A stretch of 37,562 nucleotides of DNA, taken from IMG/VR virus record IMGVR_UViG_2534681673_000007, positions 1 through 37,562 of that record; one strand, written 5' to 3'. This document shows, piece by piece, positions 1 to 37,562 of the stretch (position 1 is its first letter; every line of letters begins with the position of its first letter). The notes under the pieces are model-generated. The model ran no database searches. It was not told the origin of the DNA and saw nothing but the letters and a program-made list of their open reading frames with translations. A program made the position numbers and the translations under genes. The DNA is from a virus (lineage: Duplodnaviria; Heunggongvirae; Uroviricota; Caudoviricetes).

Positions 1-774
<774 letters not shown>

Positions 775-15162: not shown

Positions 15163-16392
15163 TCAACCACCAACGCTACCTTTCCCCACCAGCGCTTTAA
15201 TGGCAGAGGTGTCTTCCAGGATACAGTCAAAACGATGGAAGGCCAGAAAACCGGTCTGATCATATTCCGCGTAACGCTCAACCAGACGTTTAAGAATCAT
15301 GTATCGCACACGACGGATAATGAAGCGATCAAAGTCACCACAGAACATGAATTTTTTACCCGCCCCGATATCATCAATTTCCTGATCAATGACATACGGT
15401 ACATTCAACACTGAAGCAGGTGCCACACCAACAATATCCGGCAACCATAAAGGGCGTCCCTGACCGTCTTCCATCTCACTGATCAGTTTCAGCGTATTAT
15501 CGTTAAACGCCAGGCGGAATTTCGGTCCGCGACGATATGCAGGATCAATGCTGTGTTTCAGAGCCAGAATTTCCTGCCACTTCACCGCATTTGCCGCGGC
15601 AGTCTGTGTTGTGCCGGTCACTGATGCTGCCAGCCCTTTGGGTTGTTTAGGCGTACCAGCCCCCGTCCCCTGAATCAGATAACGGGCTTCACCACGACCA
15701 ATACGTTCAGCAATGCGACGGGCAAGATAAGCTTCCATATCGATCGCACTGTCCTGCAGCAACTCATTAGACACACGAATTATTTTCGATGTCATTTTGA
15801 GCGCCCCAAGGCTTTCCATACCGAAATCGGTGTCTTCTTCACCGGCTTCTTCATTTTCGCCCAGCAGAATACCAACTTCGGAAGTACCATCAGCTGTTGC
15901 CCACTCCATAGTGCGACCGTCAGAAGTGGTAAGAATCTGCGCCACACTGGCGATGCCACCGTAGGATTTCATCTTCTCAACAACTTTCGCCAGGAATGTT
16001 TCTGGTACGGTATATCCGCCCTTTTCATCCTGAGCTACGCCCTGGGCACGAAGTTCACGCAACGCCTTTCGTTCTTCTGATGTCAGCTCACTGGCACCGT
16101 GACGCATCCACTTATCAAAAACCTGAGCTCGTTTCTCATCCTGTTGTGGATTGTTTTCCGGATCAAGATTCTGACGCTGCTCTTCCTCATTGCTTTCAAT
16201 GTACGCCTGATCCTGACGACGTAGTTCTTCTTCGCGTGCAATTCGTTCATCAAGAGCTTCCAGTTCGGATTTTGCTTTGTTCCACTCAGTGCGCTGCTCT
16301 TCCGTCCATGCGTTATCACCAATTTTTTCATTCAGGGCGCGCATGTCAGTTGCGATAGTATTACGTTTCTGTTTCAGTTCATGCAGTTTCAT
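15163..16392 (-). CDS. Major capsid protein, HK97 fold, with N-terminal delta (scaffold-like) domain
   Basis: 409-aa ORF. Charged coiled-coil N-terminus (EELRRQDQAYIESNEEEQRQ) followed by capsid body. AAGGA RBS. Follows the prohead protease. Confidence 0.9.
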   Translation of the reverse strand: MKLHELKQKRNTIATDMRALNEKIGDNAWTEEQRTEWNKAKSELEALDERIAREEELRRQDQAYIESNEEEQRQNLDPENNPQQDEKRAQVFDKWMRHGASELTSEERKALRELRAQGVAQDEKGGYTVPETFLAKVVEKMKSYGGIASVAQILTTSDGRTMEWATADGTSEVGILLGENEEAGEEDTDFGMESLGALKMTSKIIRVSNELLQDSAIDMEAYLARRIAERIGRGEARYLIQGTGAGTPKQPKGLAASVTGTTQTAAANAVKWQEILALKHSIDPAYRRGPKFRLAFNDNTLKLISEMEDGQGRPLWLPDIVGVAPASVLNVPYVIDQEIDDIGAGKKFMFCGDFDRFIIRRVRYMILKRLVERYAEYDQTGFLAFHRFDCILEDTSAIKALVGKGSVGG

Positions 16393-33520: not shown

Positions 33521-34064
33521 TTCTTTTCCTTTTGCGTTGTTGGGGATAACCAGATTAACCGAATCCTTGTTGTTGGGGAATAACCAGGTCCACCTCGCCT
33601 GATGTGGCTAAAAGCAGGCACATAACAGCTAAGTATTTTCAACCAGAGAGAATCCTTAGCGTTGTGGTGAATGCGGCTCAGCGCACGCGGGTTAAGGTTG
33701 AGGCTGACAGTCGACCTTCTGTGGATACCCACCCGTCTGGTGTGCAACCTTCGCCAGGCACCGGGAGGCACCCGGCACCACAACTTTATGCTGTGTGTAG
33801 TCCTGGCGATACCAGTTTGTACCCTTGCTTCCGGCTGGTACCGTCCTTTTTACAAAACAGAGAAGAGCATCACCGGACGATGGGCTCATAACCCAATCCA
33901 TCCGGCAGTGACTACCGTAGGTGTTCTTCTCTGTTTTGTGGAGAAACTAACCGCCCCTGCGGGGGCATTTATGGAAACGTAATTGACTCAATAATCGCCG
34001 GATGGCGAGGGATTCTTGCAACCAAAATTCAACGCGGTGCAGCGCATATAACGTGGAGAACGAA

Positions 34065-34601
34065 ATGTCATTTATTAAAACTTTTTCCGGGAAGCATTTT
34101 TATTATGACCGGATAAATAAAGACAACATCGATATTAACGATATCGCGGTTTCCCTTTCAAATATCTGTCGCTTTGCAGGACATCTTTCACACTTCTACA
34201 GCGTCGCCCAACATGCGGTTCTTTGCAGCCAGCTGGTACCGCAGGAATTTGCTTTTGAAGCGTTAATGCATGATGCAACAGAAGCGTATTGCCAGGACAT
34301 CCCCGCTCCACTGAAACGCCTTCTTCCTGACTATAAACGGATGGAAGAAAAAATAGACGCCGTAATCCGTGAGAAATACGGGTTACCTCCTGTTATGAGC
34401 ACGCCAGTGAAATATGCCGATCTCATTATGCTGGCAACCGAACGCCGCGATCTCGGGCTTGATGATGGCTCTTTCTGGCCTGTACTGGAAGGCATCCCGG
34501 CAACAGAGATGTTCAACGTGATTCCAATGCCACCGGGCCATGCCTACGGGATGTTTATGGAACGCTTTCACGAGTTATCGGAGTTACGCAAATGCGCATG
34601 A
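34065..34601 (+). CDS. HD-domain phosphohydrolase (YfdR-like)
   Basis: Start MSFIKTFSGKHFYYD at 34065 with GGAG upstream. Metal-binding residues in FAGHLSHFYSVAQHAV and LMHDATEAY (H...HD pattern). Confidence 0.7.
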   Translation: MSFIKTFSGKHFYYDRINKDNIDINDIAVSLSNICRFAGHLSHFYSVAQHAVLCSQLVPQEFAFEALMHDATEAYCQDIPAPLKRLLPDYKRMEEKIDAVIREKYGLPPVMSTPVKYADLIMLATERRDLGLDDGSFWPVLEGIPATEMFNVIPMPPGHAYGMFMERFHELSELRKCA

Positions 34602-34683
34602 ATGTTTTCGAAATGGAAGGGTTTCTTCGCGGGAGATGTGTACCACGAGACCTGAAAGTGAATGAAACGGATGCTGAATACCT

Positions 34684-34953
34684 GTGCGTAAATTAGATGC
34701 GCTTGAAGCTAAATGTGCAGCACTGGAAAACAAAGTAATACCAGTGTCAGCTGAACTGCCACCAGCAAATGAAAGTGTTCTGTTATTTGATGCTAACGGA
34801 GAAGGCTGGCTGATTGGCTGGCGTTCTCTCTGGTACACATGGGGGCAAAAAGAAACCGGAGAATGGCAGTGGACATTTCAGGTCGGGGACCTTGAAAACG
34901 TCAATATCACTCACTGGGCAGTAATGCCGAAAGCACCGGAGAATAAGAAATGA
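34684..34953 (+). CDS. Hypothetical protein (Trp-rich C-terminus, possibly DUF551-like)
   Basis: ORF 34684..34953 with a non-ATG start per the ORF track. WLIGWRSLWYTWGQKETGEWQW motif. Confidence 0.4.
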   Translation: MRKLDALEAKCAALENKVIPVSAELPPANESVLLFDANGEGWLIGWRSLWYTWGQKETGEWQWTFQVGDLENVNITHWAVMPKAPENKK

Positions 34954-35165
34954 ACGTGATAAAAACTCATACAGGAATTGTTATTACCCGAAACGGTCCG
35001 CAGGTAAAAAAACTGCACCAGACAAAGCGGATGTGGGTCGTCGGAAAAAACGAGTTTTACCACAAAGAAACCGGACGCCGCCACTTTGCAGAAAATACGC
35101 GCCGCCGACTGCTCCTGGACAGCATCAGGCCAATTAAACAGGTAGCAACCATAGAACAAAATTAA
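34950..35165 (+). CDS. Hypothetical small basic protein (71 aa)
   Basis: ORF 34950..35165 overlapping the preceding stop (ATGA); upstream of xis. Confidence 0.4.
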   Translation: MNVIKTHTGIVITRNGPQVKKLHQTKRMWVVGKNEFYHKETGRRHFAENTRRRLLLDSIRPIKQVATIEQN

Positions 35166-35226
35166 TTATCAGGACTGAAATTTGATATTACTGCCCGTGT
35201 GCAGCGGGTTAAGTGGAGAAACAGCC

Positions 35227-35436
35227 ATGGCAAAACTAATGAAAGCGAGCCAATGGGGACGCCGTGAATTCTCTAATGGCTCAATTCCTGACAACCGAAC
35301 GATAAAACGCTGGGTCGAGAACGGTCTGCTCATGGGGCGTATCGTGGACGGTTCTGTTTTTGTCTGCGAAACAGAAAAATGGGGAGTCGACTCAATGGTT
35401 AGTCAAGCTGTTCGCAAGTTAATAAATGAGGGGTGA
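35227..35436 (+). CDS. xis: Excisionase-like protein
   Basis: 69-aa product, ATG at 35227 with GGAG upstream. Overlaps the integrase start. Motif TIKRWVENGLLMGRIVDGSVFV resembles excisionase-type wHTH. Confidence 0.6.
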   Translation: MAKLMKASQWGRREFSNGSIPDNRTIKRWVENGLLMGRIVDGSVFVCETEKWGVDSMVSQAVRKLINEG

Positions 35437-36617
35437 CCATGGCGGCAAGGCCACGTAAAAAAGAATACAGACATCTTCCTGATTATCTGATTTTTGATAA
35501 AGATCGAGGTGTTTATAAATTCACACTTATTACCGGAAAGAAGAAAAATATAGGTAAGGATAGGGCAATAGCCATTGCAATCGCCAGAGAGTACAACCTG
35601 AGGATGCGACCAGAATTATCTCCATCAGTAGATAATCTTATTAGAGAATCTGGCGGTGTTATCGGAGAAGCAAAACCATTTGCTGAACATGTTGATCACA
35701 TAATGGCCCGAATTATCGAAGACGAACGTCCTTCCCAGAGCACCTTAGATGACTGGAAAAATGACGCTCTACGCGTAAAAGCGTTTTTCGTAAATGTTCC
35801 GGCATGCGATATCGAACTTGAACACGTTAATACCTACATCAACAAATATCATGCCAGCGCATCCGCAAATGTGCAGAACAGAAAGGTCAGCTTTCTTAAA
35901 AAGTTGTTCTCTTATGCGGTCGATGAATCACTAATGCTGGATAACCCGGCCATCAGAAAAAAAATGCGTAGGACTGATGAGAAGAAAAGACGGCGCCTGT
36001 CACTCGAGCATTTTATAGCTATCAGGCAGGCCGCTGCACCATGGTTAAGAACAGCAATGGACCTAGCATTGCAGACTACACATGCACGACTCGAAGTATC
36101 GCGAATCCGTTACTCAATTCGCGAACCTAAAGACGGTATATGTGGATGTGTCTGGTTCGAACAACCACAAAATGGCATATATGGGACGCTTTACATCCAC
36201 AGGCAAAAAGTGCAACAAAAAGAGGCGTCACACGTTGCAATACCAATTGGTGAAGAGTTGAAACGGATAATTGACGATAGCCGAGATAATGTGGCCAGTC
36301 CGTTTGTCGTTCACAGGATCCCAGAACGCCAAGTTAAACGCAGCAAAGAGGTTTCACATCCTACTCAAGTTGCACCGGACTATTTGAGTAGGTCGTTTTC
36401 AGCTACACGGGACAAACTAGGTTTATGCGACAATCTACCAATGGATGAAAGACCAACCTTTCACGAAATTCGAGCACTAGCAGCGCATCTATTCGATCAG
36501 CAGGGTATCGATCCACAAGGACGAATGGCGCACAGCGATGCGAAGTCAACCAAGATCTACACGCAAAATCATATAGATTGGGTTGTCGTTCCCCATGGAG
36601 AAATTAAAGCCAGCTAA
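35433..36617 (+). CDS. int: Tyrosine integrase (lambda Int family)
   Basis: 394 aa. N-terminal arm-binding region similar to lambda Int (HLPDYL...GKDRAIAIAIA). C-terminal catalytic region with PTFHEIRAL...AHSDAKSTKIYTQ (R/H/R/Y pattern). Confidence 0.9.
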   Translation: MTMAARPRKKEYRHLPDYLIFDKDRGVYKFTLITGKKKNIGKDRAIAIAIAREYNLRMRPELSPSVDNLIRESGGVIGEAKPFAEHVDHIMARIIEDERPSQSTLDDWKNDALRVKAFFVNVPACDIELEHVNTYINKYHASASANVQNRKVSFLKKLFSYAVDESLMLDNPAIRKKMRRTDEKKRRRLSLEHFIAIRQAAAPWLRTAMDLALQTTHARLEVSRIRYSIREPKDGICGCVWFEQPQNGIYGTLYIHRQKVQQKEASHVAIPIGEELKRIIDDSRDNVASPFVVHRIPERQVKRSKEVSHPTQVAPDYLSRSFSATRDKLGLCDNLPMDERPTFHEIRALAAHLFDQQGIDPQGRMAHSDAKSTKIYTQNHIDWVVVPHGEIKAS

Positions 36618-36710
36618 TAATAAATTACTCCCTTTATTGCTTTAGTATAAAGCAGAGCAAACCAAATTGGACGGGTTGCTCTGTGTTGGAAGTTGAGGAA
36701 TGTATTAATT

Positions 36711-37562
36711 TCAAAGTGAGTAATTGGAGAGTTCTTCAATCATTGACCGATAATGTATACCGATACTATCGGCAAATTTTTCGCCCATCCCCTCAACTGA
36801 CGCAATTAGGCAGTCTGTAGCAACCTTCAGGGATATTATGACTAAGCAGATGTCAGCTTCACTGGGTGCACCATGACCGCTAAATTCATCAATCCTGTGG
36901 ATAGCCAGTGGCAATGGATGAGCCAGATTTGATAGTAACTGGTGATGTAGTGCAATGTCGGCTAACCGCGGGCAGCGAGCTTCGAACTCAGCTTTGGTAT
37001 AATACATTTCGGCCCTGTTTTTGAGACTATTCTTTTGTTCTTTAGATAGTGAACTATAGAATTCATGGTTCACTATCTCCTCCTGCTGCTTTGGTATGCC
37101 GGTGAAAAACTCCTCCAGTGATTCTTCAGATTCACCAGCCTTCAGTCTGATATCACGCCATTTAACATTTCTGTCTTTCTGGAAAATTCGAAAACGAAAG
37201 TCAGCCTCCGCTTCCGAGACCGTTTCCGTTCCGTAATAAAAAAGCGCCTGAAAATTTTCCATCACACTTCTGGACACAAGTGCGATAGTGGTTACATCCC
37301 ATACTGTATCATCGGGATTAACTCCGTTTCGCAGTACTGGTAGTAGTTTCTTAAGACTATGCGCAGTCAACACTTGACGAGTGAAAATATTTGCAGCCCG
37401 TATTCCCCTGCCGTCAGTCTTAATTCCGCTTTGATTCAGTGATATGGCCGCGGAAATTTCACAAGCGCGGCAGAAGATCTTATAAAGGCTAATGTAAGAC
37501 CTCTCAACCTCAGTGTGTTCTCGGAAACGAATGTTACTGCCTTTTTTAGTTCTTTTTTTCAT
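36711..37562 (-). CDS. Unknown protein (283 aa) immediately beyond the integrase 3' end
   Basis: Complete ORF whose ATG is the last codon of the window, so its promoter is outside. No recognised catalytic motif. Confidence 0.5.
   Translation of the reverse strand: MKKRTKKGSNIRFREHTEVERSYISLYKIFCRACEISAAISLNQSGIKTDGRGIRAANIFTRQVLTAHSLKKLLPVLRNGVNPDDTVWDVTTIALVSRSVMENFQALFYYGTETVSEAEADFRFRIFQKDRNVKWRDIRLKAGESEESLEEFFTGIPKQQEEIVNHEFYSSLSKEQKNSLKNRAEMYYTKAEFEARCPRLADIALHHQLLSNLAHPLPLAIHRIDEFSGHGAPSEADICLVIISLKVATDCLIASVEGMGEKFADSIGIHYRSMIEELSNYSL

What the first reader, a model, noticed from the sequence alone, without database searches (positions are those of the whole stretch)
36711..37562. 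Unknown 283-aa gene just beyond the integrase 3' end, in the attachment-site-adjacent position
Only about 90 bp separate the integrase stop from the end of this convergent gene, so the attachment site is probably in or next to that gap. Int-adjacent and att-adjacent positions are recurrent hotspots for accessory and defence cargo. The protein has no motif I can name. Whether it is phage cargo or host DNA cannot be decided from this window.
Basis: inference. Interest (0 to 1): 0.5.

Follow-up and report, generated by a model that had tools for sequence, protein, structure and literature searches.

The report
Prophage cargo gene beside the integrase
The 283-residue gene is real and belongs to the prophage: it is the only gene of a swappable 1-kb cassette between the integrase gene and the attachment site, and it encodes a rare, divergent relative of the uncharacterised DUF5677 family whose relatives sit in mobile elements and next to anti-phage systems.

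Summary
A complete 283-aa ORF lies at 36711-37562 (-), convergent with a lambda-type integrase, with a 93-bp gap. The placement of the attachment site is wrong. The gap holds terminator-like hairpins. The att repeat is 57 bp, made of the 3' part of tRNA-Pro proL plus 8 nt. It lies 193-249 bp beyond the gene's start codon, outside the window.

The gene is therefore phage cargo. It is absent from the empty yejM-proL-yejO site, which is found intact in 3784 of 5426 complete E. coli genomes. It stays linked to int in a strain with a different outer flank. Sister prophages with a 94-95% identical int module carry at least four unrelated cassettes at the same position, between the int stop and a conserved 131-bp att-proximal arm.

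The protein is soluble, all-alpha and under purifying selection (dN/dS about 0.1). Profile comparison (E 4e-43) ties it to Pfam DUF5677, although it does not hit that model itself. No solved structure, known defence family or sequenced phage matches it.

Close homologues sit in other prophages and a P4-like satellite. Distant ones sit beside PARIS-type AriA, SIR2-HerA and a type I R-M/PrrC system.

The best reading is a single-gene accessory, probably anti-phage. That function is inferred only. Interest is moderate.

The parts
36711..37562 (-). Complete 283-aa gene (stop codon at 36711-36713, ATG at 37560-37562). It encodes a soluble all-alpha protein that is a divergent member of the DUF5677 superfamily.
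   Evidence: ORF. Identical annotated CDS. Homologues. dN/dS about 0.1. Model. hhalign to DUF5677-matching proteins gives E 4.4e-43. GC is 43.4% against 50.4% for the window.
36618..36710 (.). 93-bp gap between the convergent int and cargo stop codons. Two adjacent hairpins at about 36639-36682 probably form a bidirectional terminator. This is not the att site.
   Evidence: RNA fold of the gene-sense strand gives -21.8 kcal/mol, z = -3.4. The int-sense strand gives z = -2.0. No part of the tRNA-derived att repeat occurs anywhere in the window.
36618..37562 (.). The part of the swappable cargo cassette that lies in the window. The whole cassette is about 1006 bp and runs 61 bp past the window end, to window-equivalent position 37623.
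   Evidence: blastn of the L001 slot against five sister prophage slots: similarity ends at or within about 20 bp of the int stop and resumes 131 bp before the att repeat.
35433..36617 (+). Lambda-type tyrosine integrase with an N-terminal arm-binding domain. This is the conserved left border of the cassette.
   Evidence: Pfam Arm-DNA-bind_1 at E 5.8e-6, with weak Phage_integrase hits. RefSeq annotation. The int module is present at 94-95% identity over at least 80% of its length in 107 of 5426 complete E. coli genomes.
35227..35436 (+). Small gene directly upstream of int and overlapping its start. It sits in the position of an excisionase, but its function is inferred from position only.
   Evidence: Annotated as a 69-aa hypothetical protein, WP_001096409.1, conserved in all sister prophages. 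The only hit is a weak helix-turn-helix match, DUF4817 at E 0.0045.

Best explanation
SHOWN. The gene is the only gene of a roughly 1-kb cassette inside a temperate prophage. The prophage has a lambdoid control region and a Mu/SfV-type contractile tail, and it is integrated into tRNA-Pro proL between yejM and yejO. The cassette sits between the int stop codon and a conserved 131-bp att-proximal arm. The att core lies about 190 bp upstream of the gene's start, outside the window. The cassette is exchangeable: sister prophages carry unrelated genes in the same place. The product is a cytoplasmic, all-alpha, 32-kDa protein under purifying selection and a divergent member of the DUF5677 superfamily. 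That superfamily keeps a constellation of polar residues: Y23, S41, D89, R98, E102, E119, R123, S211, H215 and P218. Position 130 is His in 88% of the family but Asp in the enterobacterial clade.

INFERRED. The gene is a lysogen-expressed accessory ('moron'). It is transcribed towards int from the att-proximal arm and ends at the hairpins in the gap. It most likely protects the lysogen against other phages as a stand-alone, single-protein system. The proposed mechanism is that the Arg/His/Glu-lined conserved surface binds or cleaves a nucleic acid or nucleotide when infection is sensed, in the manner of abortive infection. The cargo status is near certain. The anti-phage role is guilt by association. 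The biochemical mechanism is speculative.
For: Cargo status:
- The 57-bp att repeat lies beyond the gene.
- The reconstructed empty site yejM-proL-yejO is found contiguous at 100% identity, and at 80% coverage or more in 3784 of 5426 genomes. The gene occurs in 1 of 5426.
- Contigs L028 and L029 carry the identical protein next to int (their DNA is about 99.3% identical to L001 here). They are colinear with L001 only up to 17 bp into the att repeat and then have a different flank.
- The cassette borders are sharp.

Hotspot. Alternative cassettes in the same slot, counted in complete E. coli genomes:
- a DUF2971 protein matching PADLOC candidate PDC-S31 (E 5e-22), 53 genomes;
- a 289-aa unknown, 5 genomes;
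- a 583-aa unknown, 3 genomes;
- a 118-aa protein plus a RelA/SpoT-domain protein, 1 genome.

Mobility of the family. Homologues lie in:
- a Klebsiella P4-like satellite (75% identity);
- the nin-like region of two other lambdoid prophages (64% and 68%);
- an integrative mobilisable element with PemK;
- a Pseudomonas megaplasmid near HipA.

Defence neighbourhood. Of the 7 homologous loci, all at about 40% identity, found among GTDB species representatives, one lies next to a type I R-M system with embedded PrrC, one next to AriA plus a HATPase_c_3 protein, one next to SIR2-HerA, and one 23 bp downstream of an AriA/AbiLi-like ATPase. Three family members carry an N-terminal P-loop NTPase fusion. 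A preprint reports DUF5677 as enriched beside recombinase-linked defence cargo in Bacillota (10.1101/2025.10.07.681051).

Family link: hhalign E 4.4e-43, and 74 of 85 family members hit PF18928.
Against: - No member of the family has a demonstrated function.
- The one DUF5677 ORF tested in the preprint is not among the five ORFs reported to reduce plaquing by six E. faecalis phages.
- There is no hit to any PADLOC model.
- Two of the seven distant loci have only metabolic neighbours.
- Placement in the nin-like early region of two phages would also suit a gene that acts during lytic growth.
- The promoter-like match upstream is no better than chance: 3 found against 3.0 expected.
- The enterobacterial clade lacks the near-invariant His at position 130.
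Confidence: 0.45

Rival explanations
1. The protein serves the phage itself during lytic growth or induction. It could be a counter-defence or host-takeover factor rather than a protector of the lysogen.
For: In two other lambdoid prophages the homologue lies on the early-right strand, between the replication or RusA genes and the antiterminator Q region. That location is typical of delayed-early phage genes. There is no toxin-like partner and no match to a known defence family.
Against: It is absent from all 50,697 sequenced phage genomes by tblastn and from the viral structure library. In the window it is convergent with int at the prophage end and outside any phage operon. Distant homologues sit in chromosomal defence islands beside PARIS-type AriA, SIR2-HerA and R-M/PrrC, and not in phages. 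Sister phages do without it.
Confidence: 0.2
2. The family is a very divergent HEPN-type RNase. The first four helices would form the HEPN bundle and the R-x6-H motif on helix 4 would be the active site. The enterobacterial clade would be a variant with the histidine replaced.
Confidence: 0.15
3. It is an ordinary host chromosomal gene just outside the prophage.
For: It lies beyond int, the last recognisable phage gene in the window, and it is transcribed in the opposite direction.
Against: The att repeat is on its far side. The empty site lacks it in thousands of genomes. It occurs in 1 of 5426 complete E. coli genomes. It moves with int into a different flank. Its GC is 43% against 50% for the window.
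Confidence: 0.01
4. It is a non-defence accessory, such as a regulator, a metabolic or stress factor, or a selfish addiction element, carried in a slot that accepts any cargo.
For: The slot also holds genes with no defence signature, the 583-aa and 289-aa unknowns. The other prophage end carries an acyltransferase, a classic lysogenic-conversion gene. The one DUF5677 ORF tested gave no reported defence.
Against: There is no DNA-binding, transporter or metabolic domain. There is no partner gene for an addiction module. The recurrent proximity to known defence systems in unrelated phyla is not expected for a generic accessory.
Confidence: 0.19

Closest known systems
Pfam DUF5677 (PF18928), family of unknown function
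   Same: Homologous over 250 aligned columns (hhalign probability 100%, E 4.4e-43). The length is the same, about 270-290 aa, and the domain stands alone. The conserved residues Y23, S41, P75, W88, D89, R98, E119, R123, S211, H215 and P218 are shared.
   Different: The window protein does not reach the Pfam model at all, with no hit at E of 1 or below. The enterobacterial clade has Asp where 88% of the family has His (position 130). It also adds a basic N-terminal tail, MKKRTKKGSNIRFR, which is modelled with low confidence.
Variable cargo hotspots of temperate phages and satellites, such as the P2 and P4 hotspots (Rousset et al. 2022, from my own knowledge) and the gtr O-antigen modification clusters next to attP in Shigella phages, including gtrIC at this same proL-yejO site (PMC4924310)
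   Same: A short cassette with sharp borders lies between conserved phage sequences next to int and att. It is swapped for unrelated genes in otherwise similar phages. One alternative occupant is a PADLOC defence candidate.
   Different: This particular slot, between int and the att-proximal arm of the proL-integrating prophage family, was not found described in the papers I could search. Its occupant here has no known function.
Single-gene abortive-infection proteins of the HEPN superfamily, such as AbiV-type proteins
   Different: No sequence or profile link to any HEPN family was found. The histidine is missing in the window protein. The fold matches are not specific.

Membership tests
Pfam DUF5677 (PF18928) | The protein scores above the Pfam gathering threshold (27.1 bits) | tested here: not met
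   No DUF5677 hit for the window protein at E of 1 or below. The 63-75% identical homologues P0008 and P0021 also have none.
Pfam DUF5677 (PF18928) | Demonstrable homology to proteins that do match the model | tested here: met
   A profile of the clade retrieves 824 cluster representatives at E of 1e-3 or below. 74 of 85 sampled members hit PF18928, best E 7.7e-18. hhalign of the clade against distant members gives E 4.4e-43 over 250 columns.
Pfam DUF5677 (PF18928) | The family-wide conserved residues are present | tested here: met
   Y23, S41, P75, W88, D89, R98, E102, Y109, E119, R123, S211, H215 and P218 are all present. The single exception is His to Asp at position 130.
Prophage cargo gene (moron) in an int-att hotspot | The gene lies inside the element's att boundaries | tested here: met
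   The exact 57-bp repeat of the proL 3' end lies at L001 16256-16312, beyond the gene's start at 16063.
Prophage cargo gene (moron) in an int-att hotspot | The gene is absent from the unoccupied integration site | tested here: met
   The reconstructed yejM-proL-yejO junction is contiguous at 100% identity. 3784 of 5426 genomes cover at least 80% of it in one place.
Prophage cargo gene (moron) in an int-att hotspot | Related phages carry unrelated genes between the same conserved borders | tested here: met
Prophage cargo gene (moron) in an int-att hotspot | The gene has its own promoter and terminator and is expressed in the lysogen | tested here: inconclusive
   Terminator-like hairpins have z = -3.4. 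One sigma-70-like match lies 107 bp upstream in the conserved arm, but the count of such matches equals chance. Expression cannot be tested with these tools.
HEPN superfamily RNase | R-x4-6-H motif on the last core helix | tested here: not met
   The window protein has R123-x6-D130. The wider family has R-x6-H in 88% of members.
HEPN superfamily RNase | Four-helix HEPN fold recognisably closer to HEPN than to other helical bundles | tested here: inconclusive
Known anti-phage defence systems (PADLOC-DB 2.0) | Match to any defence or defence-candidate model | tested here: not met
   Zero hits for the window protein, for P0021 and P0024, and for ten fused family members apart from trivial P-loop matches.
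Toxin-antitoxin module | A conserved adjacent partner gene | tested here: not met
   The cassette has room for one gene only. The neighbours of homologues are unrelated to one another.

The most novel reading that the evidence does not exclude
The DUF5677 superfamily is a new family of stand-alone anti-phage effectors. It may be a very divergent HEPN-like or other nucleic-acid- or nucleotide-targeting enzyme. This rare enterobacterial clade, with its catalytic-position His replaced by Asp, would be a prophage- and satellite-borne variant with altered chemistry or specificity.
Probability: 0.3. Interest if true: 0.55.

Novelty: new member of a known kind. Interest (0 to 1): 0.38.

Why it matters

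It also defines a compact exchange slot in a prophage family present in 107 complete E. coli genomes. The slot has sharp borders, runs from the int stop codon to a 131-bp att arm, and holds at least five alternative cassettes. It could be mined for accessory or defence genes.

It links an orphan 'hypothetical protein' to DUF5677. That family has about 800 sequence clusters and no known function, and it recurs in mobile elements and beside PARIS-type, SIR2-HerA and R-M/PrrC systems. If the family proves to be anti-phage, it would add a single-gene system. If not, the gene is one more uncharacterised moron.

Tried and rejected
- Direct family searches of the protein (Pfam, NCBIfam, PHROGs, PADLOC) gave nothing usable.
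- PDB sequence-profile searches with the narrow and the broad alignment gave nothing.
- tblastn against 50,697 phage genomes found no match. Against plasmids it found one Pseudomonas megaplasmid.
- I looked for a conserved partner gene. The roughly 220-aa neighbours in Klebsiella, Atlantibacter and the Bacteroidetes MAG are unrelated to one another, and so are the upstream 297-aa and 379-aa genes. A two-gene system is rejected.
- I tested whether the 289-aa occupant of the same slot in strain LH09-a is a diverged homologue. It is not.
- hhalign of the family profile against the neighbouring PrrC and against the Klebsiella 222-aa neighbour, as stand-ins for HEPN proteins, found no similarity.
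- The search for related loci with the broad alignment failed because no stretch was conserved enough. With the narrow alignment it returned only 7 loci.
- A second profile search of the large protein collection added no informative names.

Full report
**1. The observation**

The window ends with a 283-codon ORF on the minus strand, 36711-37562. Its ATG is the last three bases of the window. It is convergent with a 394-codon ORF at 35433-36617 (+). That ORF carries the lambda-integrase arm-binding domain (Pfam Arm-DNA-bind_1, E 5.8e-6) and weak tyrosine-recombinase matches. The two stop codons are 93 bp apart.

The ORF is complete. The only identical complete genome, E. coli EC20-4B-2 (NZ_AP026937.1, locus L001; window 36500 = L001 15001), annotates the same CDS as hypothetical protein WP_000747443.1. 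The sequence beyond the window shows a GAGG ribosome-binding site 7 nt before the ATG and an in-frame TAA seven codons upstream.

The gene is under purifying selection. dN/dS is 0.10-0.12 against the 68-75% identical Klebsiella, Citrobacter and Atlantibacter copies, with synonymous sites near saturation.

**2. Where the prophage ends**

In EC20-4B-2 the element lies between tRNA-Pro proL, which follows yejM, and yejO. An exact 57-bp copy of proL nucleotides 29-77 plus the next 8 nt lies at L001 16256-16312:

CGTCATGGGGTGTCGGGGGTCGGAGGTTCAAATCCTCTCGTGCCGACCAAAAATCCC

This is between the start codon of the 283-aa gene (16063) and yejO. In window terms it is 193-249 bp past the window end. No part of the repeat occurs inside the window.

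I joined the yejM-proL side to the sequence that follows the repeat, which reconstructs the empty site. That 535-bp junction is found contiguous at 100% identity. At least 80% of it is covered in one place in 3784 of 5426 complete E. coli genomes. The gene itself is in 1 of 5426.

Two contigs from other E. coli (L028, L029) encode the identical protein next to the same int. They are colinear with L001 only up to 17 bp into the att repeat and then continue into unrelated DNA. So the gene travels with the phage and not with the chromosome.

The 93-bp int/gene gap is not the att site. It folds into two adjacent hairpins at window positions of about 36639-36682 (-21.8 kcal/mol, z = -3.4 on the gene's sense strand). 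This fits a terminator shared by the two convergent genes.

The proL-yejO interval is already documented as a phage integration site in Shigella flexneri, for the gtrIC cluster (PMC4924310).

**3. The slot is a cassette hotspot**

The int module (window 34000-36620) occurs at 94-95% identity, over at least 80% of its length, in 107 complete E. coli genomes. In every case similarity stops at the int stop codon. In seven sister loci the att repeat always lies beyond the cargo. The distance from int stop to att ranges from 1137 to 3153 bp.

Aligning the slots shows two conserved borders:
- the int 3' end;
- a 131-bp att-proximal arm, 82-93% identical in five of the six sister loci compared. In the sixth (L004) only its att-proximal roughly 36 bp aligned.

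Between these borders lies a variable cassette. In this phage the cassette is about 1006 bp: the 93-bp hairpin region, the 852-bp gene and 61 bp upstream of it.

| Slot occupant | Complete E. coli genomes |
|---|---|
| DUF2971 protein matching PADLOC candidate PDC-S31 (E 4.9e-22), with further genes | 53 |
| 289-aa protein unrelated to ours | 5 |
| 583-aa protein with no family | 3 |
| 118-aa protein plus 256-aa protein with a borderline RelA/SpoT nucleotidyltransferase domain (E 6e-6), reminiscent of toxSAS toxin-antitoxin pairs | 1 |
| DUF5677-like gene of this window | 1 |

The only promoter-like match for the gene is TAAACA-16-CATAAT, 107 bp upstream inside the conserved arm. It is a consensus match no better than chance. 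Expression from the arm is an inference.

**4. The protein**

It is 32 kDa, with pI 7.1 and GRAVY -0.32, and has no convincing membrane segment. AlphaFold2 with a 19-sequence alignment gives a confident all-alpha model of 12 helices (pLDDT 83.8, pTM 0.80).

The word-index search found 23 close clusters (63-100% identity), a few of them partial sequences. Those with a source name are from E. coli, Citrobacter, Klebsiella and Atlantibacter. It also found two relatives at about 39% identity that carry Pfam DUF5677.

An exhaustive HMMER search with the clade profile found 824 cluster representatives at E of 1e-3 or below, mostly stand-alone proteins of 255-295 aa. Of 85 sampled members, 74 hit DUF5677. 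hhalign of the enterobacterial clade against 60 distant members gives probability 100% and E 4.4e-43 over 250 columns.

The protein is thus a divergent member of the DUF5677 superfamily that the Pfam model itself does not detect.

Residues conserved across the family are Y23, S41, P75, W88, D89, R98, E102, Y109, E119, R123 (invariant), S211, H215 and P218. Position 130 is His in 88% of members, which gives an R-x6-H pair on the fourth helix. In the whole enterobacterial clade it is Asp.

Several arginines together with His, Glu and Ser suggest a site that binds a phosphate-bearing ligand. This is inference only.

**5. Context of relatives**

Every close homologue examined is on a mobile or accessory element, each time in a different setting:
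- the primase-side end of a Klebsiella P4-like satellite with Psu, Delta/Ogr, AlpA, Ash and a primase;
- between RusA and an Rha/Ant antirepressor, ahead of Q, in a lambdoid phage from metagenomes;
- between the replication genes and DinI/RusA in an Atlantibacter Rac-like prophage;
- a small islet in Citrobacter;
- an island with ProQ-like and IS genes.

The distant homologues at about 40% identity show this pattern:
- one lies on an integrative mobilisable element with PemK;
- one lies on a Pseudomonas megaplasmid near HipA;
- among the seven loci found in GTDB species representatives, four lie beside recognised defence genes. These are a type I R-M system with embedded PrrC (PADLOC E 8e-141), an AriA ATPase of PARIS type (E 1.8e-78) with a HATPase_c_3 protein, SIR2-HerA (HerA E 1e-178), and an AriA/AbiLi-like ATPase only 23 bp upstream. 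At least two of the seven have only metabolic neighbours.

Three family members carry a shared N-terminal P-loop NTPase domain. No partner gene is conserved. The family is absent from 50,697 sequenced phage genomes.

**6. Literature**

Only three papers in the library mention DUF5677. One preprint (10.1101/2025.10.07.681051) found the domain enriched next to serine recombinases that mark defence cargo in Bacillota. It tested one such ORF in Enterococcus faecalis against six phages. That ORF is not among the five reported as protective. This supports the association but not the function.

**7. Interpretation**

Shown:
- the gene is real;
- it is prophage cargo;
- it is the only gene of a swappable cassette between int and the att arm;
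- it is a member of the DUF5677 superfamily.

Inferred, at about 45% confidence: it is a lysogen-expressed, single-protein anti-phage accessory that acts through its conserved polar surface on a nucleic acid or nucleotide.

Rivals:
- a gene that helps the phage during lytic growth or counters host defences (about 20%);
- a non-defence accessory (about 19%);
- a mechanistic sub-hypothesis, that the family is a very divergent HEPN RNase (about 15%). This is weakened by non-specific fold matches and by the missing histidine in this clade;
- the host-gene reading, which is refuted.

**8. Verdict**

This is a new member of a known kind: an uncharacterised moron in an int/att-adjacent hotspot that belongs to a known domain of unknown function. 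It is of moderate interest as a candidate for experimental testing and for the cleanly delimited exchange slot. Nothing here shows a new mechanism.

Noticed in passing
window 1-774 and 1323-2390: The other end of the prophage, proximal to proL, also carries cargo. By comparison with the 99% identical prophage of strain LH09-a, these are a LEM-3-like GIY-YIG domain protein and an acyltransferase family protein, possibly for O-antigen modification. Window position 1 lies 768 bp after proL, past a DinI-like pseudogene.
   Followed up: partly
L001 245-2134 (NZ_AP026937.1), and L001 as a whole: The only complete genome with the identical gene carries a truncated copy of the prophage of about 17 kb, with the head and lysis genes missing. 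It has a DUF262-domain protein near the proL end that is not in the window. The window therefore comes from a different strain with an intact prophage.
   Followed up: no
L028 4700-4950 and L029 1-566: In two other E. coli contigs the DNA just outside the att core is not yejO. It is a stretch rich in CCAACTT(G/A) repeats. In L028 an XRE-type HTH gene and a SymE-like toxin gene lie about 3 kb further out. In L029 a 240-aa ORF ends 53 bp from the cargo gene's start. This may be a second element in tandem at proL.
   Followed up: partly
L005 8665-9792 (E. coli 100181): The same int-att slot holds a 118-aa gene abutting (1 bp apart) a 256-aa gene with a RelA/SpoT-like nucleotidyltransferase domain. 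The Pfam score of 27.0 equals the threshold. The layout resembles a toxSAS toxin-antitoxin pair. PADLOC finds no match.
   Followed up: partly
L006 8979-9647 (-) (Klebsiella P4-like satellite): The 222-aa gene convergent with the Klebsiella homologue contains the sequence ELYEARNAIHIHAE. This is an R-N-x-x-H type motif like those of HEPN nucleases. It has no Pfam or PADLOC hit.
   Followed up: no
L037 32635-33966 and 30151-31014 (E. coli LH09-a sister prophage): The sister prophage carries a KAP-family NTPase between the holin and Q genes and a DUF6236 protein next to the HNH/terminase genes. This suggests further cargo slots in this phage family. The equivalent window positions were not examined.
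   Followed up: no
proteins P0032, P0055, P0076; P0097; P0103, P0172: Some DUF5677-family members are fused to other domains. Three share a P-loop NTPase N-domain (Walker A GPPGVGKTE). One carries DUF1353. To my eye, two have an N-terminal region resembling MtlR/DUF4145-type helical domains.
   Followed up: partly
L039 9743-9820 (E. coli VE-V11-M): In the DUF2971-cassette prophages the att copy on the int side differs from the proL repeat at 2-5 positions. In VE-V11-M it lies under an annotated tRNA-Pro feature, unlike the 57-bp fragment in L001. ARAGORN found no tRNA in the related locus L004.
   Followed up: no
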